A stretch of 64,000 bases of DNA from positions 1 to 64,000 of IMG/VR virus record IMGVR_UViG_3300049052_000033. One strand, written 5' to 3'. The translations under genes and the position numbers were made by a program. Below are positions 3,611 through 62,211 of this stretch, in pieces. Each line of letters starts with the position of its first letter. Position 1 is the stretch's first letter. The notes beneath the pieces were generated by a model. The model was not told the DNA's origin. It was given only the letters and a program-made list of their open reading frames with translations, and ran no database searches. The stretch is from a virus (lineage: Duplodnaviria > Caudoviricetes).

Positions 3611-4225
3611 TTATGGGGCGACAACCTTGCAACGCCAAGACTGCGTGTGATACCTGCATGTCAGTTCGTTATAGTAGGTTCCTTCCAGCTTCAACATGCC
3701 GTTCTTAATGAAGAACACTTCAGCCCTGACCATGAACGGGATGACATCGACCGTCCCGTTCATGAGGCGGGCCACCGGTGTCGAGCGTCCAAAGGGCGCG
3801 AAGAACTCGTAGTCCAGTGACAACTGCCCTTCCGGATAATTGCTCTCGCGCCGGAATGCCTCCTGCCATCGCTTGACCGGCGTGCCGTCGGCAAAGAAGC
3901 ACTGGTGTATCGCCACCCGCCGGGGGATACGGCAACGCCACGACTGCGCGTGGTATTTACCCTTCAGATCATCGTAGTAGGTCCCCTCGACCTTCATCAG
4001 GCCGTCTTTGAGGAAGAACACTTCCGCCTTGATCATGGGCGGGATGACGTCGACGGCGCCATCCATCAGCCGGGCGACCTTCGTCCACCGGCCAAACGGC
4101 TCGTGAAACTCGTAGTCCAGGGTCAGCGCCCCCTGCGCCACCACGGCATCACGCCCAGGTGTACCCTGCCCGCGCTTCGTCGGAGTGCCATCATCCAAAA
4201 AGCACCGGTGTACCGCCACATGCAT
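3611..4225 (-). CDS. SOS-box-preceded protein made of two tandem ~100-aa homologous domains
   Basis: Internal repeat VAVHRCFLDDGTP...LDYEF..PFGR.T.VARLM.G.VDVIP...EGTYY....YH.QSWRC occurs twice; start placed at MHVAVH (4225). Confidence 0.75.
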   Translation of the reverse strand: MHVAVHRCFLDDGTPTKRGQGTPGRDAVVAQGALTLDYEFHEPFGRWTKVARLMDGAVDVIPPMIKAEVFFLKDGLMKVEGTYYDDLKGKYHAQSWRCRIPRRVAIHQCFFADGTPVKRWQEAFRRESNYPEGQLSLDYEFFAPFGRSTPVARLMNGTVDVIPFMVRAEVFFIKNGMLKLEGTYYNELTCRYHTQSWRCKVVAP

Positions 4226-4244: not shown

Positions 4245-4264
4245 TACTGTATGTTTGTACAGTA
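4245..4264. promoter_or_regulatory. LexA (SOS) box
   Basis: TACTGTATGTTTGTACAGTA matches CTGT-N8-ACAG with TA flanks, about 20 bp upstream of the 4225 start. Confidence 0.85.
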
Positions 4265-44263: not shown

Positions 44264-44305
44264 TTACAACAATTTATTGTAAGCGATTTAAATAAATAAT
44301 TGAAG
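44264..44305 (-). promoter_or_regulatory. Sigma70 promoter overlapped by CI-type operators
   Basis: Minus-strand TTCAAT-N17-TACAAT; operator TTACAAC-AATTT-ATTGTAA (44264-44282) plus a half-conserved copy at 44287-44305. Confidence 0.7.
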
Positions 44306-52385: not shown

Positions 52386-53585
52386 TCATCCATCAAGCAA
52401 TAGATTCGGCAGACCAAAATTCACAGGACCAGCGTCAAACACCCCCGGCTCAACACCCACCGCTGACCCCGCAGGTACCTGATGTGCACCATACTTAACA
52501 GTGCTTTGCTGAGCGCGCACTGTCTCCAGAGTGGCGACCGGCGCCGGCTGCAGGGCCGACTCAAGCAGGTGTTTATAGCTGGCTACCGTCTGGCGAGAGA
52601 GGCGGGCGACCTTAGCCACTGCGGTCTGCGTCAGCTTCACGCCCTGGTCGAGGAGCTGCCGGCAGGCGCCACGGATTTTCGATTCAGTGGCCTGGTGGCG
52701 CCGGCCGTGCGTGCGCTCGGCGGCCATGCGCTGGCGAACTTGCAGCGGAAGGCTGTCGTCCAGCTGCATCACCCCTCGATGGCATCCTCCGCTGCCTTTG
52801 TAGTAGGTCCATGTCCAGCGGGCCACAGACCGCACAGTCGATCGCAGCGACGACAACGGAAGGTTCTCGGCGAATCCATATTTGTGGAAGCTGTTATGGT
52901 TGTGGGCGAAGGCATCCAGCAATCGCGAGAACCCTTCGAACGTCCCGTTAGACCGCTCGCGGTTCACGATGGAGTAGGCGTAGTGGCGCAGCAGCTCAAA
53001 CAGGATGCAGTGACGGGACTGGGCGACGTCTTCGACATTGGCTTGTTTTGCCCAGGGCGCAGTGCGTTCCAGCTCGACATGGTCGGCCAGCTCCCCCAGC
53101 TCGTACTCGTGCGCATGCAGTTCGTCGGTTAACCACCAGCGATGACCTGGTGTCTTGGCGACGGGGCCGCTGTGGAAGCTGCGGTCCGCATCCAGCCTGG
53201 CCGCCATTGCTTCGTAGATCGCCTTCATATAGGCAATCGGTTTGTCGCGTGCCGCCTCAGTCGTGCAGACCGGGACGATGGCGTAGAACAGGTGGCTTTT
53301 CCCGCTTTGCCTGTTGCGCACGATCAGGTTTGGTGCCGGCAGGCCCACGTCCTCCCAGCGCATCGCATGAGAGTGGTCCAGGTCGAAGATTAGCCAGCTG
53401 ACGAACCCCGGGCGGTTGACCTGCATGTACGGGTAGCGAATGGCGTACTCGCGCGGCCGCACACGCGTCGCGGTCTTATCGTCGCTACACCTGGGGTAAT
53501 ACGGGGCTTCCGTCAGGACGCGCGACAGCGCCGTCCCTTCCTGGAAGAACCGTTGTTGCGATTCTTCAATCTTAGGCACGAACAT
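52386..53585 (-). CDS. repA: Plasmid replication initiator, ColE2-type replicase/primase (Replicase + PriCT + HTH)
   Basis: PYYPRCSDD, YMQVNRP, WLIFDLD, KSHLFY, GPVAKTP motifs; PriCT-like helical region; C-terminal HTH; GAGG RBS (start 53585 or 53591). Confidence 0.88.
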   Translation of the reverse strand: MFVPKIEESQQRFFQEGTALSRVLTEAPYYPRCSDDKTATRVRPREYAIRYPYMQVNRPGFVSWLIFDLDHSHAMRWEDVGLPAPNLIVRNRQSGKSHLFYAIVPVCTTEAARDKPIAYMKAIYEAMAARLDADRSFHSGPVAKTPGHRWWLTDELHAHEYELGELADHVELERTAPWAKQANVEDVAQSRHCILFELLRHYAYSIVNRERSNGTFEGFSRLLDAFAHNHNSFHKYGFAENLPLSSLRSTVRSVARWTWTYYKGSGGCHRGVMQLDDSLPLQVRQRMAAERTHGRRHQATESKIRGACRQLLDQGVKLTQTAVAKVARLSRQTVASYKHLLESALQPAPVATLETVRAQQSTVKYGAHQVPAGSAVGVEPGVFDAGPVNFGLPNLLLDG

Positions 53586-53618
53586 AGCCATCCTCGCCCC
53601 CAAAAGGGGGTAAAGTGG

Positions 53619-53755
53619 TTGACAGGGGCTAAGAGGGGGTCTAAGATGAAGCTTCCTAGTAAGGGGGTTCCAGCCCCCTGACGCTGCATCCAGTACCATC
53701 GACTCTGTAGCTGTACATGAAACGCCTCGGTTCCAGCCGGGGCGTTTCGCTTTTC
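53619..53755 (+). ncRNA. Candidate counter-transcribed antisense RNA of the repA leader (promoter plus ~100-nt RNA)
   Basis: TTGACA-N17-TAAGAT at 53619-53647 pointing opposite to repA; terminator GAAACGCC...GGCGTTTC-GCTTTT at 53719-53755. Confidence 0.65.
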
Positions 53756-53853
53756 AGGGTCCGGTTATCGGTCCATGTGGTTCCTTTGTCCAAATACGTC
53801 GAAACCCGACCAAAGGCCGGGTTTCGCGGTTTACGGGTTAACGATTAGACTAT

Positions 53854-53886
53854 TATTCCCGGGGAATATTACATAAGCCATTGATT
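53854..53886. promoter_or_regulatory. parS-like palindrome plus IHF site, copy 3
   Basis: TATTCCC-G-GGGAATA followed after 5 bp by TAA-GCCA-TTGATT, at the parB 3' end. Confidence 0.65.
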
Positions 53887-54842
53887 TAATTGACTTTCAT
53901 GTCTTTTTTCTGCTGCGTCAAACGCTCCAGAGCTTCCTCGATGGCACGGCGCACCTCCGCCATATCTAGATCCGGGTCGGCCAGGCGCGTTACGATATCG
54001 CGATCCTTTTCCAGCGTAACAAAGCACGCGTCCCCCGACGGGTAGGGGATATGGTGCCGCCCTCGCTGGGTGCTTGTCCGCTCAGTCTTACTTTTTACTT
54101 TGTTGCTTACAGCTTGTGCAACCCATGCCCGGAGGCCGTTTTGTTCGACACCTGGTTCGACTAAGCGACGAATACCTGCGATGACCAATTCGCTGTGTTC
54201 CGGATATTGATCCCACAGCGCCTGGACAACAGCGGCTGCCTTCGCACCGAATAACCCCGGTTCCTTGTCCAGCTCGTCCAATATCGGCTTGGGCAGGTCG
54301 AGCATACTCAGGCATTTCGATACCTTTCCCTGCGAACAGCCCCAAAGCTCGGCCACTCCCGACTGGCTCGACGCGAAGCCGTCGTCCAGCGCCTCGCGGA
54401 ACATCAACGCATGTTCGTAGTCGGTATTAGGCCGGCTGGTATTGTCCAGCCAGACGTCCAGCTTCGCCTGCCGATCATCACGTACAACCACAAGCGCCCG
54501 CAGTTCGGGAATGCCGCGATCCTTGGCGGCCCGGGTACGGGTTTCGCCTTTCAAAAGCTCATAACGACCGTTGGCTTTTTGACGCACCGTAATCGGCGTG
54601 CGCTGGCCAGCAGTAATGAGCGTCGCGCCCACTTGGTCAACGGCAATCGGGTCAACCTTCTTGCGGCTTTGGTACGGGGAATAGTCCAGCAGATCCACGG
54701 CAATCATGCGCTCGACCGCCACGTCGGCAGTCGGCGTCTGCGCCTGATTTTGCGCCTCAGGGAGAGCGTCGAACGCGTGAGACTCGCTTCCAGCAGTAGG
54801 TGCTGCAACTTTTCCAGCTTGAATCAGTCCGGACACCTTCAT
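53886..54842 (-). CDS. parB: ParB partition protein
   Basis: SPYQSR, GQRTPITVR, YELLKGETRTRA (ParB box II-like), HTH region SQSGVAELWGCSQGKVSK. Confidence 0.9.
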   Translation of the reverse strand: MKVSGLIQAGKVAAPTAGSESHAFDALPEAQNQAQTPTADVAVERMIAVDLLDYSPYQSRKKVDPIAVDQVGATLITAGQRTPITVRQKANGRYELLKGETRTRAAKDRGIPELRALVVVRDDRQAKLDVWLDNTSRPNTDYEHALMFREALDDGFASSQSGVAELWGCSQGKVSKCLSMLDLPKPILDELDKEPGLFGAKAAAVVQALWDQYPEHSELVIAGIRRLVEPGVEQNGLRAWVAQAVSNKVKSKTERTSTQRGRHHIPYPSGDACFVTLEKDRDIVTRLADPDLDMAEVRRAIEEALERLTQQKKDMKVN

Positions 54843-55888
54843 GCAGCAGCCTCCAGGCCGTATGGCTTGATGCCGGCAAGGCGAACGTCATACAGCTTTA
54901 CCAGCGATCGAGTCAGGTCGATAATCTCGCGAGCCCCCACGCTATTCAGTTCGCGCTCCAGCACCGGCGCATTGCTGGTGACATTGGCCGGATCTGTCTC
55001 TCGCAAGAATCCGACGAAATCTCGGACAACGTTATCGTTGACTTTGCCAGGATACTTAGACAGCAACACGGAGAGATTGTCGCGATGCGGTTGGCGTGAC
55101 TGGTTGAACTTATTGACCACGATATGCACGTCAAGCCTCACACCAGAATCGCGCAACGCCTGGTTAATTTCTTGCACATTCGACGCCAGCACATCCAGCG
55201 CGGTAATGGCTTGACCTTCAGGTGCCACAACGGCCAGTAACTGTTTGCTTGCCACCATGAAGCTGGTCGCCAGCAGCGAGGCCCCCGGGGCCGAGTCGAT
55301 GATAATTACGTCATACTGGCTGAAAAATTCCAGTTCCGCTTCTAACAAACGCTTAAACACATGTTCCCGCGCCATAGCCCCAATCATCCAGGCATCGTCC
55401 GCCATCGTGATATCGCTCGGGATCAGGTCAAGCATGCCGCCCACGTACATTGGACGAACGGCCTCGCGGATTCTAGTTGGTTCACCGCGCGCGTTCCGCT
55501 TCATCAGCTCAGCGATGTGCGTGATCGGTTCAGCCATTGCGTCAATGCCGTAGAGGCCTGTCAGCGAAGCCTGAGGGTCCCCGTCGATTAGCAGGACCTT
55601 GTAGCCCATCAGGGCCATAGCACAAGCCACGTTGCCCGAAATGGTAGTCTTACCTACGCCGCCCTTCGCCATGCGTGTATTCATGATTGGCGGCAAGGCC
55701 AGCGGGCGCTTCGTGTCCTGAGGAATATTCAATAGCTGCATCCGAATACTGCGGATGCGCTGCGGAGAGTAAAGCTGCACGGTGCCATCGTTGGCTTCGC
55801 GGAAACGGTCACGGAACATCTTAGGTGACCCCGTGAAGCCGGTAAAATCCTGTGCGTGTTTTGGTTTAATGCCGGGGAAGTTTCGCAT
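54839..55888 (-). CDS. parA: ParA partition ATPase (type Ia with N-terminal extension)
   Basis: KGGVGKTT Walker A, LLIDGDPQASLT, YDVIIIDSAP. Confidence 0.93.
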   Translation of the reverse strand: MRNFPGIKPKHAQDFTGFTGSPKMFRDRFREANDGTVQLYSPQRIRSIRMQLLNIPQDTKRPLALPPIMNTRMAKGGVGKTTISGNVACAMALMGYKVLLIDGDPQASLTGLYGIDAMAEPITHIAELMKRNARGEPTRIREAVRPMYVGGMLDLIPSDITMADDAWMIGAMAREHVFKRLLEAELEFFSQYDVIIIDSAPGASLLATSFMVASKQLLAVVAPEGQAITALDVLASNVQEINQALRDSGVRLDVHIVVNKFNQSRQPHRDNLSVLLSKYPGKVNDNVVRDFVGFLRETDPANVTSNAPVLERELNSVGAREIIDLTRSLVKLYDVRLAGIKPYGLEAAA

Positions 55889-58183: not shown

Positions 58184-58233
58184 CTACAACAAATAGTTGA
58201 AGTTCAGCGAGTATATATCAATTTTTCGGTGTA
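58184..58233 (-). promoter_or_regulatory. Leftward sigma70 promoter with a CI-type operator just downstream
   Basis: Minus-strand TTGCTA-N16-TATACT; operator CTACAAC-AAATA-GTTGAAG at 58184-58202. Confidence 0.6.
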
Positions 58234-58335
58234 GCAAGTGCTGCATTCCGGCAAACCTGAATTCCGTTATACAAAATCAGCTTTCAGGAGTTGCAAATAA
58301 GGCTATATACTTTGCCCGAAGCATTGGAGATTTAT

Positions 58336-59343
58336 ATGTCCCGGCTGCCCCTATACCGACACCCAACGACAACCGTCATTCTTGACGAGTCGCAGCACCA
58401 CATTCACGCCGTGCCAACCGAGCTGGATACCCAGCACCCGACCGTCACCTTTACGAATGCGGCGGATGCCGTCGAATACATCACCGGGGCGCAGGCGATG
58501 ATGGACCATGCACGCAGCCCGATTGCCCTGGATCCTGTGGCGCCGGCGGCTGGCGTTCCGGTCGGGTCGCTTTCGGACGGGCTCGACCACATTTACGGCT
58601 ACGTGCAGGACCCGCAGCGATTCTGCGCGCCGGCAGTCGTGGTCGTTGAATACTCGCGCGCCGCCGGCGGGGGCATGGAGTTTTGCGAGGAAATCGCGCA
58701 CCTGCCCGTCAAGTGCATCTGGCGGTCCCGTGCCGCGGAGCAGCACGATGGTATTGCGGCCTATCAGCGCGGCCTGGTCAATCGGTTTGTGCAGCGCGAA
58801 GCGGGCTGGGCCAGCCGCGGCCTGTTGGAGTCCGTGGAAATGCTCGAGCACGAATACTTCGTGGAGCTATCCCAGCGCCTTCCGGGGCACATCCTTGATA
58901 CTGCGTCCTATCGCTTCCTGCAGGACCCGGCATTTGCCTCCCTGGTGCAGGAGCAGGCCGACCGCTATGGATTCGTCGAGCACTACCTGTTCACGGCACC
59001 CAGCGGCCTGTTGTTTTTCGACGCCGATGGGCATGCCACCTTGATGGTCGTCCAGACCGAAGAAAGCTTGGCCACCCAGTTCGAAATCGCGCGTGACGCG
59101 CAGGCACCGGTGCGCCTGTTGCAGGACCTGTTCAAGTGCAGGGTGGTGCCGTTTTTCGGCACGGAGGATGGCATGTACTCCGACCAGCTGGAGGACGATC
59201 CATGCAGCTATTGCCAGCCGGCGCTCGTATGTCGCGGAAGCAGCGACTACTACTGGGCATTGTTTGACGTGCCGCCCGGTATGCGAAAGGGCCAGGCCTT
59301 CCCTTATGCCCGGTATCGCGAGACAGGCCCGCTACGCGGTTAG
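58336..59343 (+). CDS. LqsR/JqsR-family response regulator homolog with an atypical receiver domain (Asp replaced by Glu)
   Basis: P.T.V..D(E)S N-terminus, P.RF...VVVVEY...GMEFC..I, GIAAYQRGLVNRFV, EYF, FL.DPAF, VEHYLF...SGLLFFDADG follow the recalled LqsR pattern over ~335 aa; GGAG RBS. Confidence 0.8.
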   Translation: MSRLPLYRHPTTTVILDESQHHIHAVPTELDTQHPTVTFTNAADAVEYITGAQAMMDHARSPIALDPVAPAAGVPVGSLSDGLDHIYGYVQDPQRFCAPAVVVVEYSRAAGGGMEFCEEIAHLPVKCIWRSRAAEQHDGIAAYQRGLVNRFVQREAGWASRGLLESVEMLEHEYFVELSQRLPGHILDTASYRFLQDPAFASLVQEQADRYGFVEHYLFTAPSGLLFFDADGHATLMVVQTEESLATQFEIARDAQAPVRLLQDLFKCRVVPFFGTEDGMYSDQLEDDPCSYCQPALVCRGSSDYYWALFDVPPGMRKGQAFPYARYRETGPLRG

Positions 59344-59348
59344 GGCCG

Positions 59349-60245
59349 CTACGATAGAAGGCCCAAGCGCACCGCTGCATCGACAATCTGGTTGGTGGTC
59401 TCGACGCCCAGCTTTCCCTTGATCGCCTTAATGCGGCGGTCAATGGTCGGAATGCTCACGCCCATGAAGGCAGCAATTTCTTTGCGCAGGCGGCCATTCT
59501 TCAGGTAGGCAATGATCTCCACGTCATTCGCCGGAATTCCGACTTCGTCTTGCTCCTGCGCTGAGGCCGCACGGGCAGCTTGCAATCGCCCCAGCAAGGC
59601 ATGCGCGGCGTGGGCCAGCATGATCAGGTTTGGCTCCATTTGCGCCAGCTCGACCGGGTCAATGTCCGGATCTGCGCGCGATAGGACCAGAGTAGCCAGG
59701 CCGTCATCGGAGCGGAGCACCCAGCCAGAGCGAATACCGTGCCGGCTCGCCAGTGACCAGAACGCCGGGTTTTCTGCATGGCGTTCTCGCGCGGTCCATG
59801 TGGTTGGCCCTGTCATTTGGTTGACGCGTGGATCGATCAGGACAAGTTGTTCCCGATCGTAGGCCTCGCGCCATTCCCGCAGGTGATTGTGTTCTACCAC
59901 CATGTCGCCTGGGTCGCGCGCAGAGTGGGCCACGCCCAGCGTGGTGCCGAAACCGAATTTCTCGCGCGCCAGCTTGGCGATCGCCGAAAACTGCTTGTGA
60001 TCGGGCAGGTCTTGCAGTTCACGAATGATGCGTTTGCCCCACCGGTTGGTCCCGTCGCGGTGCTCGATCGGCAAGGTGAGCGGCGCGTCGCGCGCCTGGC
60101 GCTGCACTCGTTCCGCCGACAGGATGCGTTGATGAATGGTCTTGAGCTGCAGCCAAGGCTGCCAATCGACACGGCGACGAATCCTGCGCAGCACGAAACT
60201 GGCGAACTCGCCGGCCGGCACCGGCATGCCCGTGCTCTCCGACAT
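59349..60245 (-). CDS. LuxR-family regulator (autoinducer-binding domain plus HTH), orphan, with N-terminal extension
   Basis: W125, Y129, D138, P139, W150, G174 match the conserved AHL-pocket W/Y/D/P/W/G set; C-terminal LuxR HTH (KEIAAFMGVSIPTIDRRI..IKGKLGV). Confidence 0.88.
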   Translation of the reverse strand: MSESTGMPVPAGEFASFVLRRIRRRVDWQPWLQLKTIHQRILSAERVQRQARDAPLTLPIEHRDGTNRWGKRIIRELQDLPDHKQFSAIAKLAREKFGFGTTLGVAHSARDPGDMVVEHNHLREWREAYDREQLVLIDPRVNQMTGPTTWTARERHAENPAFWSLASRHGIRSGWVLRSDDGLATLVLSRADPDIDPVELAQMEPNLIMLAHAAHALLGRLQAARAASAQEQDEVGIPANDVEIIAYLKNGRLRKEIAAFMGVSIPTIDRRIKAIKGKLGVETTNQIVDAAVRLGLLS

Positions 60246-60505
60246 AGCGTAATGTTCGACGTGATGCCATGCGGCGGGATGACGAACCGTCGAAGGCTAT
60301 CATCGTAGTACCAGTGCCATCGGACCCACACATCCGGCTGATAGCTTCCACGCCATTCAGCGAATCCCGCTATCAGGACCGGGAAAAGGCGCTTCAATTG
60401 CTCCAGCAGCTGGTCGTCCACGTCGATCGTCAGGCGGCGCTGCGCGATGCGCTTCAAGGCTGCGCGGGTCAGGCGCACTTCCTGGTCGTGGGTTGAGCCG
60501 GTCAT
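60246..60505 (-). pseudogene. Upstream coding segment that appears frameshifted relative to the LuxR ORF
   Basis: 87 high-GC3 codons from ATG 60505 (MTGSTHDQ); the coding signal switches frame at ACG CTA TGT / ATG TCG with no stop codon. Confidence 0.45.
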
Positions 60506-60724
60506 GTCGTTGCCTGTGTGGCGAAATGCGTGTGGGGACGGACAAGCGGGTGTTACCAAGCCTATCACGAAAGCTATCACGTCCTTGATAGTTTAAGCTC
60601 AGCTGTTACATTGTCACAGTGCGCTTAATTGATAGCTAACAGGTGTTGCCTTGGCGCCATCGGCGATGCCAAGATACTGACCTCGTTTCTTGACTTACAT
60701 CAACAATCGTAAAGGTAGCGTTCG

Positions 60725-60985
60725 ATGAGTAAAGTGGTATCCCGCCTGACCCGCATTGCAACCGGTAGCATGACCTCTGATCGTACTGAAGCCGCGGCGC
60801 TCTACGCCCTGGCACAAGCCTATCGCCGCGCGTCGCGGGCCGATCAGGCCTATTTACTGGCGGTGGCCCAAGACCTGGGCCGTGGCGAAGATTTGGAAAT
60901 GGAGCAAGTCGTGGCCCGCATGCCGGCGCCGGCTTCCCGTGGAAGGTTACGCTTGGTTCAGGGCGGCGGGCGGCAGAGCCGGTAA
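60725..60985 (+). CDS. Small protein resembling the CI C-terminal domain (candidate antirepressor)
   Basis: AAAGG RBS; residues 28-51 align ungapped with CI residues 106-129; divergent from luxR and convergent with cI. Confidence 0.6.
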   Translation: MSKVVSRLTRIATGSMTSDRTEAAALYALAQAYRRASRADQAYLLAVAQDLGRGEDLEMEQVVARMPAPASRGRLRLVQGGGRQSR

Positions 60986-61393
60986 CTCCCCTGCAGGCTT
61001 TTTCTCAATCCGTGCGGCCGACAGCAGCAGCTGTCGCTGGCCGGCATCGGTGCCCATGCGGAAGTGGTGCAGCAGTTCCATCTCCTTCGTCCCCTCGACG
61101 AAAACCAGCAAATACTCCGGCTGCTGCCGACGCGGGCCGGTGGGGATCGTCTGGACCTGGCCATCGATGTCGCCATACAACAAGTAGGATTCGGTCACCC
61201 CGAAGTGCATGGCCAGCTTGGTCAGCATGGCAGGGCGTGGAAGCTGCGGGCCAGTCAGCCATTTGCTGACCGCTTGCGGCGAAGTCCCGACGATGCGCGC
61301 AAGTTCGGACTGGTTGCCGTCGTGATATTCGTGCAGTAAGGCTCTGAGGCGGTCCGCGAAAGTTTCCGGCGCCTTCTCTTTCATTTGTTCCAT
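60947..61393 (-). CDS. cI: CI-like XRE/HTH repressor without an S24 autopeptidase domain
   Basis: FADRLRALL...NQSELARIVGTSPQAVSKW HTH; only 148 aa; divergent from cro. Confidence 0.88.
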   Translation of the reverse strand: MEQMKEKAPETFADRLRALLHEYHDGNQSELARIVGTSPQAVSKWLTGPQLPRPAMLTKLAMHFGVTESYLLYGDIDGQVQTIPTGPRRQQPEYLLVFVEGTKEMELLHHFRMGTDAGQRQLLLSAARIEKKPAGELPALPPAALNQA

Positions 61394-61402
61394 TGCAATA
61401 GG

Positions 61403-61469
61403 TTACAACGTTTCGTTGTAAATGGCACTTCAATATTTTGTTGTAGAAACCCCTCTGTTGTTTTAATAT
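61403..61469. promoter_or_regulatory. cI/cro operator pair and rightward promoter
   Basis: TTACAAC-GTTTC-GTTGTAA (61403-61421), CTTCAAT-ATTTT-GTTGTAG (61428-61446); TTGTAG-N17-TAATAT (61441-61469). Confidence 0.8.
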
Positions 61470-61504
61470 TTTGGTTCAATAGTTTTTGCCAATGGAAACA
61501 GGAA

Positions 61505-61702
61505 TTGAGTACAGGAATAGCAAAGGCAGTGGAGCTTGCCGGCAATTCGCAGACAGGCCTCGCTAAAGCCATCGGGTTGACCCCGCAGGCCGTACAGCGC
61601 TGGGTGTCGCTGGGCCGCACTTCCGCGCAGGGCGCTGTGCTGATTGAAAAGGCCTACCCGGGCCGCATTACGCGCGCCGAACTCTGTCCGATCTTCGCCT
61701 GA
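61505..61702 (+). CDS. cro: Cro-like repressor (YdaS type)
   Basis: TTG start; KAVELAGNSQTGLAKAIGLTPQAVQRW HTH; TRAELCP C-terminus. Confidence 0.85.
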   Translation: MSTGIAKAVELAGNSQTGLAKAIGLTPQAVQRWVSLGRTSAQGAVLIEKAYPGRITRAELCPIFA

Positions 61703-61732
61703 CCTGGCACACACCCACCACAAGGATTTCGC

Positions 61733-62035
61733 ATGACCAACGAAACCACTGCAGTAGAGACTGAACTGGAATTCTCGCGTTCCTCGCTACTTGACGAGGT
61801 TCAATTATCTCCGGAAGTGACCAGCCGGTCACGCAAGAATCAATCGGTAATCTTGCAAAAGATGCAGGAAGTGACGGGCGTTGAGTTGGCGGCCCGCATG
61901 GGCTTCCACGAATCCCAGATTTCGCGCTTCAAGAATGGCCCGTTGCAGTTCGCTGCCTGCCTGCTGGCAGCAGCAGGCCTGAAAGTGGTGCCGGCCGACG
62001 CCGTGGTCTATGTCAAGCCGACCGAGTACGAATGA
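61733..62035 (+). CDS. cII: CII-family transcriptional regulator
   Basis: SRKNQSVILQKM...LAARMGFHESQISRFK...LLAAAGLKVVP; position after cro. Confidence 0.8.
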   Translation: MTNETTAVETELEFSRSSLLDEVQLSPEVTSRSRKNQSVILQKMQEVTGVELAARMGFHESQISRFKNGPLQFAACLLAAAGLKVVPADAVVYVKPTEYE

Positions 62036-62211
62036 TGCGTACTCCAGAGCAGTCGATTCCCACCTTGCCCCAGGTGCCACCGATGCCGATCGAGCCGGCG
62101 CACGTCATGCGGAAAGCTGACTACGCCCGGCAAGTGGAGCAATCCCGGTAACAGGGCGAAAAAAAGCCCGGCTGCAACCGGGCTTCCTTCCACTACTTGT
62201 ATTCATTGCTC

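What the first reader, a model, noticed from the sequence alone, without database searches (positions are those of the whole stretch)
60725..60985. Small ORF mimics the C-terminal domain of CI: candidate dominant-negative antirepressor
Seen: ungapped alignment of CI 106-129 ELLHHFRMGTDAGQRQLLLSAARI with small ORF 28-51 ALAQAYRRASRADQAYLLAVAQDL gives 7 of 24 identities plus F/Y, T/S and I/L. The small protein has no HTH, and its 3' end overlaps the cI 3' end by 39 bp on the opposite strand. Inference: it heterodimerises with CI through the shared helical domain and removes it from operators; the convergent overlap could add antisense interference. The alignment is short, so chance similarity is possible.
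Basis: partly seen in the sequence, partly recalled or inferred. Interest (0 to 1): 0.8.

Follow-up and report, generated by a model that had tools for sequence, protein, structure and literature searches.

The report
Candidate small antirepressor beside phage cI
The 86-codon ORF is a real, conserved phage gene that always sits tail-to-tail with one type of non-cleavable CI repressor. It is most likely a signal-controlled small antirepressor of a known kind, but its claimed sequence mimicry of CI is no better than chance.

Summary
The ORF (60725-60985, +), the 148-aa HTH-only CI (60947-61393, -) and their 39-bp tail-to-tail overlap are all real. The 7/24 identities also exist, but 84% of shuffles do as well. 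Profile-profile comparison finds the same register at P 0.12-0.68, and 6% of column shuffles reach its score.

The gene is genuine. Its frame has the only positive codon score of the six frames, dN/dS is 0.17 against a 91%-identical copy, and about 17 relatives of 70-101 aa exist. These have no Pfam or PHROG family. They share a helical hairpin and an invariant C-terminal L(R/Q)LV motif.

In all 12 loci with this CI C-terminal domain, the small gene lies convergent to cI. Its upstream input varies between loci:
- a divergent RsaM-like(DUF4902)-LuxR receptor in the window and two relatives;
- DUF4902-HTH without the autoinducer domain in two relatives;
- a perfect LexA box in another phage;
- unknown in the rest.

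This fits the published TF-smORF prophage-induction modules and SOS-controlled antirepressors of non-cleavable repressors. SinI/AimX-like heterodimerisation through the CI C-terminal domain stays possible but untested, because the complex predictor was unavailable. The 3' overlap is not conserved (0-51 bp).

Other first-reader notes on this genome had proposed the quorum-sensing reading; the scan holds nothing on other DNA.

The parts
60725..60985 (+). smORF: 86-aa small protein, candidate antirepressor. Predicted helices 15-35, 38-50, 54-64, a disordered tail, and an invariant L-R-L-V at residues 75-78.
   Evidence: ORF. Only frame with a positive codon log-likelihood. dN/dS 0.17 vs L004 and 0.35 vs L002. 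Homologues. Model. No Pfam or PHROG family.
60947..61393 (-). cI-like repressor, 148 aa: HTH_3 domain (about 12-72), Pro-rich linker, hydrophobic strand-like segment 93-99, helical hairpin 101-129, conserved EKKP tail. No S24 peptidase domain.
   Evidence: Pfam HTH_3 1.5e-9 only. PDB sequence matches limited to the HTH of 434/P22 repressors. Model. Alignments.
60947..60985 (.). 39-bp convergent 3' overlap of smORF and cI.
   Evidence: Coordinates. Overlap length varies from 0 to 51 bp among relatives.
60562..60640 (.). Conserved control region between the TF gene and the smORF: CTATCA/TGATAG dyads (60574-60591, 60586-60601), CTGT-N9-ACAG palindrome (60603-60619), a further TGATAG (60630-60635).
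   Evidence: More conserved than the flanking coding DNA. Blocks shared by five DUF4902-TF loci. No CI-type operator here. Not a LexA box by spacing.
60585..60612 (+). Promoter-like site facing the smORF (TTGATA-16-TACATT with TG). It would give a leader of about 105 nt.
   Evidence: Consensus scan, 3 sites found vs 0.5 expected. Hexamers conserved in L002 and L003 by eye. Function inferred, not shown.
60590..60617 (-). Promoter-like site facing the TF gene (GTGACA-16-TAAACT). It overlaps the palindrome.
   Evidence: Function inferred.
60245..60505 (-). RsaM-like (DUF4902) N-terminal part of the transcription factor, 87 codons. In relatives it is fused in frame to the LuxR part.
   Evidence: Pfam DUF4902 3.2e-9. 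78% identical to residues 1-87 of the 387-aa L002 protein.
59349..60245 (-). LuxR-type receptor part (Autoind_bind + GerE HTH), 298 aa. It is separated from the DUF4902 part by a 1-nt frame change at the junction.
   Evidence: Pfam. 68% identical to residues 88-384 of the L002 fusion. Intact 387-aa fusions in L002 and L003.
61403..61446 (.). Two CI/Cro-type operators (19-bp dyads) in the cI-cro intergenic region.
   Evidence: Pattern found 6 times vs 0.11 expected in the window; none lies in 60581-60724.
61505..61702 (+). cro-like gene (YdaS/HTH family). The start is uncertain.
   Evidence: Pfam YdaS_toxin 1.4e-10. 66-aa counterpart in L002.
61733..62035 (+). cII-like regulator.
   Evidence: Pfam Phage_CII 1.2e-4; phrog_725 2.4e-17.

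Best explanation
The 86-aa ORF is the effector of a phage induction module. It is a small, largely helical protein with no DNA-binding domain that inactivates the neighbouring CI repressor, which cannot cleave itself. It is made only when an input regulator allows transcription from the conserved control region at 60562-60640.

In this phage-plasmid the input is the divergently transcribed RsaM-like/LuxR-type acyl-homoserine-lactone receptor, so induction would respond to quorum-sensing signal. In relatives the same effector-repressor pair is wired to other inputs, including LexA/SOS.

Shown: the gene is real, under purifying selection, and strictly linked to this CI type. The upstream inputs differ between loci.

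Inferred: that it binds CI, how it binds, and whether the LuxR protein activates or represses its promoter.
For: 1. Real gene. It has a positive codon score in this frame only. Of 19 differences from L004, 12 are at third positions, giving dN/dS 0.17. An 85-aa homologue at about 60% identity lies in the same synteny. There are 17 family members in all.
2. Link to CI. HMMs of the small protein and of the CI C-terminal domain hit exactly the same loci (12 of 12). Neither hits any of about 28 loci whose repressor shares only the HTH. Orientation is always convergent to cI.
3. CI has only an HTH_3 domain and no peptidase, so induction needs an antirepressor (established for 186, N15 and Gifsy phages; own knowledge and PMC10432266).
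4. Inputs. A DUF4902+Autoind_bind+GerE gene is divergent in the window, L002 and L003. DUF4902+GerE without the ligand domain is divergent in L006 and L042. A perfect LexA box lies 14 nt before the start codon in L013 and L038-41. Chance expectation for the core is 0.79 per 64 kb.
5. The architecture matches published TF-smORF modules, including LuxR-controlled ones near the par locus of plasmid-like phages (PMC10432266). This element carries Replicase/PriCT, ParA and ParB.
6. There is no CI-type operator in its control region.
Against: No direct evidence of binding to CI or of derepression exists.

The small protein has no similarity to any characterised antirepressor.

The TF gene in this window is interrupted by a 1-nt frame change, so the input may be impaired here, or the assembly may be wrong.

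The predicted promoter hexamers overlap the dyads. A regulator bound there could repress rather than activate.

In L007, L008 and L037 no regulator or LexA box was found upstream.

A separate LexA-box gene (3611-4225) could be the real antirepressor of this phage.
Confidence: 0.6

Rival explanations
1. The small protein copies the helical hairpin of the CI C-terminal (dimerisation) domain and forms an inactive CI:small-protein heterodimer, as SinI does with SinR and AimX with AimC. This is a sub-case of the best explanation, differing only in how CI is inactivated.
For: The predicted hairpin turn falls at the aligned position in both models. The small protein co-occurs only with CIs carrying this C-terminal domain. 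Both proteins combine a Pro/Ala-rich linker, a short hydrophobic strand-like motif (CI 93-99; small ORF L-R-L-V 75-78) and a two-helix hairpin. The mechanism has precedent (10.1101/2025.11.23.689978).
Against: The similarity is not significant: 84% of shuffles match the identity count, hhalign P is 0.12-0.68 with probability <=0.5%, and 6% of column shuffles reach the score. There is no Pfam SinI hit. The CI C-terminal model has low confidence. The small protein diverges faster (mean p-distance 0.67) than the domain it would copy (0.55). Distance correlations do not favour the C-terminal over the N-terminal domain. Qtip, the best studied phage smORF, is reported to act through the repressor's N-terminal domain (own knowledge, not checked here).
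Confidence: 0.2
2. The small protein is induced with the lytic programme but acts on something other than CI. Possible targets include a host protease, the division machinery, a chaperone or the replisome, with the C-terminal L(R/Q)LV motif serving as a docking peptide or degron.
For: The invariant C-terminal motif sits in a predicted disordered tail, typical of short linear binding motifs. SOS-controlled small prophage proteins with host targets are common (own knowledge). There is no detectable similarity to known antirepressors.
Against: Strict physical and phylogenetic linkage to one CI type across different phage backbones (ParAB phage-plasmids, and an SSB/DnaB-type phage) argues for a CI-directed function. 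A host-directed factor would not need to travel with the repressor.
Confidence: 0.13
3. The functional product is the transcript, not the protein. Convergent transcription from the small-ORF promoter into cI lowers CI synthesis by antisense pairing or polymerase collision.
For: Convergent orientation is conserved in all loci. No intrinsic terminator is found on the + strand between the small ORF and cI.
Against: Purifying selection acts on the protein frame, and protein motifs are conserved at only 27-37% identity. The overlap is variable and absent in L008. This effect may add to a protein function but cannot replace it.
Confidence: 0.05
4. The ORF is a chance open frame in GC-rich DNA.
For: The genome is 62.6% G+C. 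GC3 of the ORF (0.66) is lower than in most genes of the element.
Against: Codon score, dN/dS, a conserved length and conserved motifs in 17 relatives from many samples.
Confidence: 0.02

Closest known systems
TF-smORF prophage induction modules of plasmid-like phages, including XRE-LuxR/smORF of Aeromonas phages Apop and ARM81ld (Silpe et al., Nature 2023, PMC10432266)
   Same: A transcription factor gene is divergently transcribed from an unannotated small ORF with no recognisable domain. The module lies beside cI and near the par/rep genes of a phage-plasmid. A LuxR-type AHL receptor is the input.
   Different: The small protein is unrelated in sequence. The TF here is an RsaM-like (DUF4902) domain joined to LuxR, not an XRE plus LuxR operon. 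CI here is non-proteolytic, a class that study set aside. The smORF is convergent with, and overlaps, cI. Nothing has been tested experimentally.
VqmA(Phage)-Qtip of vibriophage VP882
   Same: [quoted passage not shown]
   Different: The receptor family (VqmA/DPO versus LuxR/AHL) and the small protein both differ. VP882 cI is also SOS-cleavable.
SinI-SinR of Bacillus subtilis and AimX-AimC of arbitrium phages (bioRxiv 10.1101/2025.11.23.689978)
   Same: A small helical protein acts against an XRE-HTH repressor that has a short helical oligomerisation domain.
   Different: No significant sequence or profile similarity between the small ORF and the CI C-terminal domain. No SinI family hit. The host phylum differs. 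Heterodimer formation is untested.
SOS-controlled antirepressors of non-cleavable repressors (186 Tum, N15 AntC, Gifsy antirepressors)
   Same: A non-cleavable repressor is inactivated by a small protein whose gene is under LexA. A homologue of this small ORF in L013 and L038-41 carries a perfect LexA box.
   Different: In the window there is no LexA box at the small ORF (CTGT-N9-ACAG only). There is no sequence relation to those proteins. The gene sits directly against cI rather than elsewhere in the prophage.

Membership tests
TF-smORF prophage induction module (PMC10432266) | Transcription factor gene adjacent to, and divergently transcribed from, a small ORF | tested here: met
   DUF4902/LuxR gene(s) 59349-60505 (-) face the smORF 60725-60985 (+). 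Same arrangement in L002, L003, L006 and L042.
TF-smORF prophage induction module (PMC10432266) | Small protein without recognisable domain or distant homologues | tested here: met
   No Pfam or PHROG family. No PDB sequence or fold match. Only a narrow family of about 17 sequences.
TF-smORF prophage induction module (PMC10432266) | Located in a plasmid-like temperate phage near cI and the par/rep genes | tested here: met
   Replicase/PriCT, ParB and ParA at 52386-55888; cI at 60947-61393.
TF-smORF prophage induction module (PMC10432266) | TF activates the smORF promoter | not testable with these tools
   Only conserved dyads and promoter-like hexamers were seen. The sign of regulation is unknown.
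TF-smORF prophage induction module (PMC10432266) | Small protein inactivates the cognate cI without proteolysis and triggers lysis | not testable with these tools
This needs reporter, EMSA and lysis assays.
SinI/AimX-type mimic antirepressor | Antirepressor shares a homologous helical oligomerisation domain with its repressor | tested here: inconclusive
   The same register is found each time, but P is 0.12-0.68, 6% of column shuffles reach the score and 84% of sequence shuffles match the identity count. The secondary-structure register agrees.
SinI/AimX-type mimic antirepressor | Match to the Pfam SinI anti-repressor family | tested here: not met
   No hit at E<=1 for the small ORF, its 16 relatives or CI.
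SinI/AimX-type mimic antirepressor | Heterodimer with the repressor's C-terminal domain that prevents oligomerisation | not testable with these tools
   The complex predictor was unavailable.
LexA-controlled antirepressor (Tum/AntC/Gifsy type) | LexA box in the promoter of the antirepressor gene | tested here: not met
   Window: the only CTGT-N8-ACAG is at 4247-4262; the dyad at 60603-60619 has N9 spacing. The feature is met in the homologous gene of L013 and L038-41.
Lambda-type autocleavable CI (LexA/S24 family) for the partner repressor | C-terminal S24 peptidase domain with Ser/Lys dyad | tested here: not met
   148 aa with only HTH families matched. PDB matches are confined to the HTH.

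The most novel reading that the evidence does not exclude
The small protein is a rearranged copy of the CI C-terminal module: hairpin then strand, where CI has strand then hairpin. It caps CI monomers through both elements. The same effector-repressor cassette has been rewired during evolution to LexA, to an RsaM-like-HTH factor, and to an RsaM-like-LuxR AHL receptor. In this Janthinobacterium-type phage-plasmid, quorum-sensing signal rather than DNA damage would then be a main trigger for inactivating a non-cleavable CI.
Probability: 0.15. Interest if true: 0.65.

Novelty: new member of a known kind. Interest (0 to 1): 0.45.

Why it matters
If confirmed, this adds an uncharacterised small-protein family to the TF-smORF antirepressor class and extends that class to phages whose CI cannot self-cleave.

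It also gives a natural series in which one effector-repressor pair is coupled to different inputs (SOS, an RsaM-like-HTH factor, an RsaM-like-LuxR AHL receptor). That series is a direct handle on how phages swap induction signals.

An RsaM-like domain joined to a DNA-binding domain may also shed light on how RsaM proteins, whose mechanism is unknown, act in AHL quorum sensing.

One relative lies in a cultured isolate (Janthinobacterium sp. S3T4), so genetics is feasible.

Tried and rejected
Tools that were not available:
- Complex prediction (CI alignment + small-ORF alignment) was busy, then unavailable, so no complex test was made.

Searches that found nothing:
- blastn of 59300-62100 against phage records: no match.
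- Pattern scans of viral and genome contigs with the small protein. The 8-sequence alignment was too divergent for a pattern scan.
- ESM Atlas: no informative neighbour; its own model has pLDDT 0.52.
- PDB sequence search with the family profile: only a chance hit, E 0.68.
- Foldseek of the AF2 model: nothing below E 1.5.
- The weak phrog_12831 'repressor' hit (E 0.09) is seen in 1 of 17 members only, so I dismissed it.

Analyses that were uninformative:
- Distance correlation of the small protein with the CI N-terminal versus C-terminal domain: Pearson 0.67 vs 0.79, Spearman 0.30 vs 0.28.

Ideas rejected:
- The 60603-60619 dyad as a LexA site: wrong spacing.
- CI autoregulation of the small ORF: no CI-type operator in its control region.
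- A lambda CIII-like role: rejected because SOS control in a relative fits induction, not establishment of lysogeny.

Relatives of a virus record cannot be drawn by the genome search.

Full report
WHAT IS THERE

The window is part of a 72.4-kb virus record. It carries Replicase/PriCT, ParB, ParA and an integrase-family gene at 50.9-55.9 kb, so the element is a phage-plasmid.

From 59.3 to 62.0 kb the order of features is:
- a LuxR-type receptor (Autoind_bind + GerE, 59349-60245, -);
- an RsaM-like DUF4902 segment (60245-60505, -);
- a 220-bp control region;
- the small ORF (60725-60985, +);
- a 148-aa HTH_3 repressor (60947-61393, -);
- a YdaS/Cro-like gene and a CII-like gene (+).

IS THE ALIGNMENT MORE THAN CHANCE? 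NO.

Shuffling the small ORF 2000 times gives at least 7/24 identities somewhere against CI in 84% of trials. The BLOSUM62 score of the claimed segment (20) equals the mean best score of the shuffles.

I then collected relatives of both proteins and compared profiles. Six percent of column-shuffled small-protein profiles reach the same score.

AlphaFold2 models made from shallow alignments show a two-helix hairpin in both proteins, with the turn at the aligned residues. In CI the helices are 101-113 and 116-129, at pLDDT about 50-62. In the small protein they are 15-35 and 38-50, at pLDDT 74-78, followed by a third helix and a disordered tail.

So there is a resemblance of shape in a very common motif, but no demonstrable homology.

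IS THE ORF A GENE? YES.

- Its frame is the only one of six with a positive codon-usage score.
- A copy on an independent ENA contig (L004) differs at 19 positions in the non-overlapping part. Twelve of these are third positions, and dN/dS is 0.17.
- An exhaustive phmmer search found one 85-aa homologue. It lies on a 76-kb contig with the same gene order.
- Starting from CI homologues I found further diverged copies. A profile search brought the family to 17 sequences of 70-101 aa.
- The members share the hairpin and an invariant L(R/Q)LV at or near the C-terminus. This motif is kept even where the gene does not overlap cI (L008), so it is selected in the small protein itself.
- No member hits a Pfam or PHROG family consistently. 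The PDB sequence search, Foldseek and the ESM Atlas gave nothing.

CONTEXT IS THE INFORMATIVE PART

Linkage to CI. HMMs of the small protein and of the CI C-terminal domain hit exactly the same loci among those fetched (12 of 12). Neither hits any of about 28 loci whose repressor shares only the HTH. The small gene is always convergent to cI.

The repressor. CI has no peptidase domain. It therefore needs an antirepressor for induction. This is established for phages 186, N15 and the Gifsy phages, and is noted in PMC10432266.

The upstream input differs between loci:
- Window, L002 and L003: a divergent DUF4902+Autoind_bind+GerE protein, 387 aa when intact.
- L006 and L042: DUF4902+GerE without the ligand domain.
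- L013 and L038-41, a different phage type with SSB and DnaB: a perfect 20-bp LexA box whose core ends 14 nt before the start codon. The core motif is expected 0.79 times per 64 kb.
- L007, L008 and L037: nothing recognised.

A conserved effector-target pair with interchangeable induction inputs is what one expects of an antirepressor.

The control region. It is better conserved than the flanking genes and holds TGATAG/CTATCA dyads and a 17-bp palindrome shared by the DUF4902-type loci. It has promoter-like hexamers on both strands. It contains no CI-type operator, whereas the 19-bp operator occurs six times elsewhere against 0.11 expected.

COMPARISON WITH WHAT IS KNOWN

The arrangement matches the TF-smORF modules of plasmid-like phages. 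In those, a transcription factor, in two Aeromonas phages an XRE plus a LuxR receptor with C4-HSL, turns on a divergent small ORF that inactivates cI without cleavage (PMC10432266).

The differences are:
- a new small-protein family;
- an RsaM-like domain joined to LuxR in place of an XRE partner;
- a non-proteolytic CI, a class that study excluded;
- tail-to-tail overlap with cI.

SinI mimics the SinR oligomerisation domain, and AimX binds the C-terminal oligomerisation domain of the arbitrium repressor AimC to form a heterodimer (10.1101/2025.11.23.689978). Either way the finding would be a new member of a known kind.

CAVEATS

- In this window the DUF4902 and LuxR parts are separated by a 1-nt frame change exactly where relatives are fused. 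The LuxR part keeps its own ATG, but the input may be impaired, or the assembly may be wrong.
- The dyads overlap the predicted -35 and -10 hexamers, so the factor may repress rather than activate.
- The element also has one LexA box (4247-4262) in front of a tandem-domain gene (3611-4225, -). That gene could be a separate SOS-driven antirepressor.
- The 3' overlap with cI ranges from none to 51 bp. Antisense pairing is therefore not a conserved feature, though convergent transcription could still interfere.

HOST

The L008 relative is a 70.8-kb contig of Janthinobacterium sp. S3T4. This fits the 62.6% G+C of the window.

VERDICT

- The antirepressor interpretation is plausible on independent grounds (confidence about 0.6).
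- The mimicry mechanism is unproven (about 0.2).

Noticed in passing
window 59349-60505 (-); L002:4613-5776; L003:6854-8017; L006:4763-5395; L042:441-1109: An RsaM-like DUF4902 domain is fused to a LuxR-type regulator in these phages. The fusion has the AHL-binding domain in L002 and L003 (387 aa) and lacks it in L006 and L042 (210-222 aa). In the window the fusion is split by a 1-nt frame change at residue 87/88. RsaM proteins are known as stand-alone quorum-sensing regulators (PMC10710839 was listed but not read).
   Followed up: partly
window 60947-60958; alignment A9: An invariant C-terminal L(R/Q)LV motif in all 17 small proteins lies in a predicted disordered tail after a Pro/Ala-rich linker. 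It is retained where there is no overlap with cI. Its role is unexplained: it may be a docking strand for the CI segment 93-99, or a degron.
   Followed up: partly
window 4247-4262 and 3611-4225 (-): The only CTGT-N8-ACAG (LexA-type) box in the record lies about 20 bp upstream of a 204-aa gene made of two similar halves. That gene has no Pfam family and only a weak phrog_5560 hit. It is a possible separate SOS input to the same non-cleavable CI.
   Followed up: partly
L013:4540-4555 (also L038-L041): A perfect 20-bp LexA box lies directly in front of the small-ORF homologue of an unrelated phage backbone (SSB, RecA-dependent nuclease, DnaB). The same phage was seen in four JGI samples.
   Followed up: yes
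window 44264-44305, 58184-58202, 61403-61446: The 19-bp CI/Cro-type dyad occurs at three distant places (6 matches with at most 1 mismatch vs 0.11 expected). One copy lies upstream of the 350-aa gene at 58291-59343, which has no Pfam hit and has 333-334-aa counterparts in L002 and L003 convergent to the LuxR gene.
   Followed up: partly
L043 / L008: The L008 relative is identical in length (70,830 bp) to a contig of Janthinobacterium sp. S3T4. The smORF-cI pair is therefore present in a cultured isolate, probably as a phage-plasmid.
   Followed up: no
window 60640-60724; alignment A10: Conserved blocks (GTTGC ... GCAAAG) continue through the putative 5' leader of the small ORF in all five DUF4902-type loci. 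Their function is unknown: a second promoter, a leader structure or a further binding site.
   Followed up: no
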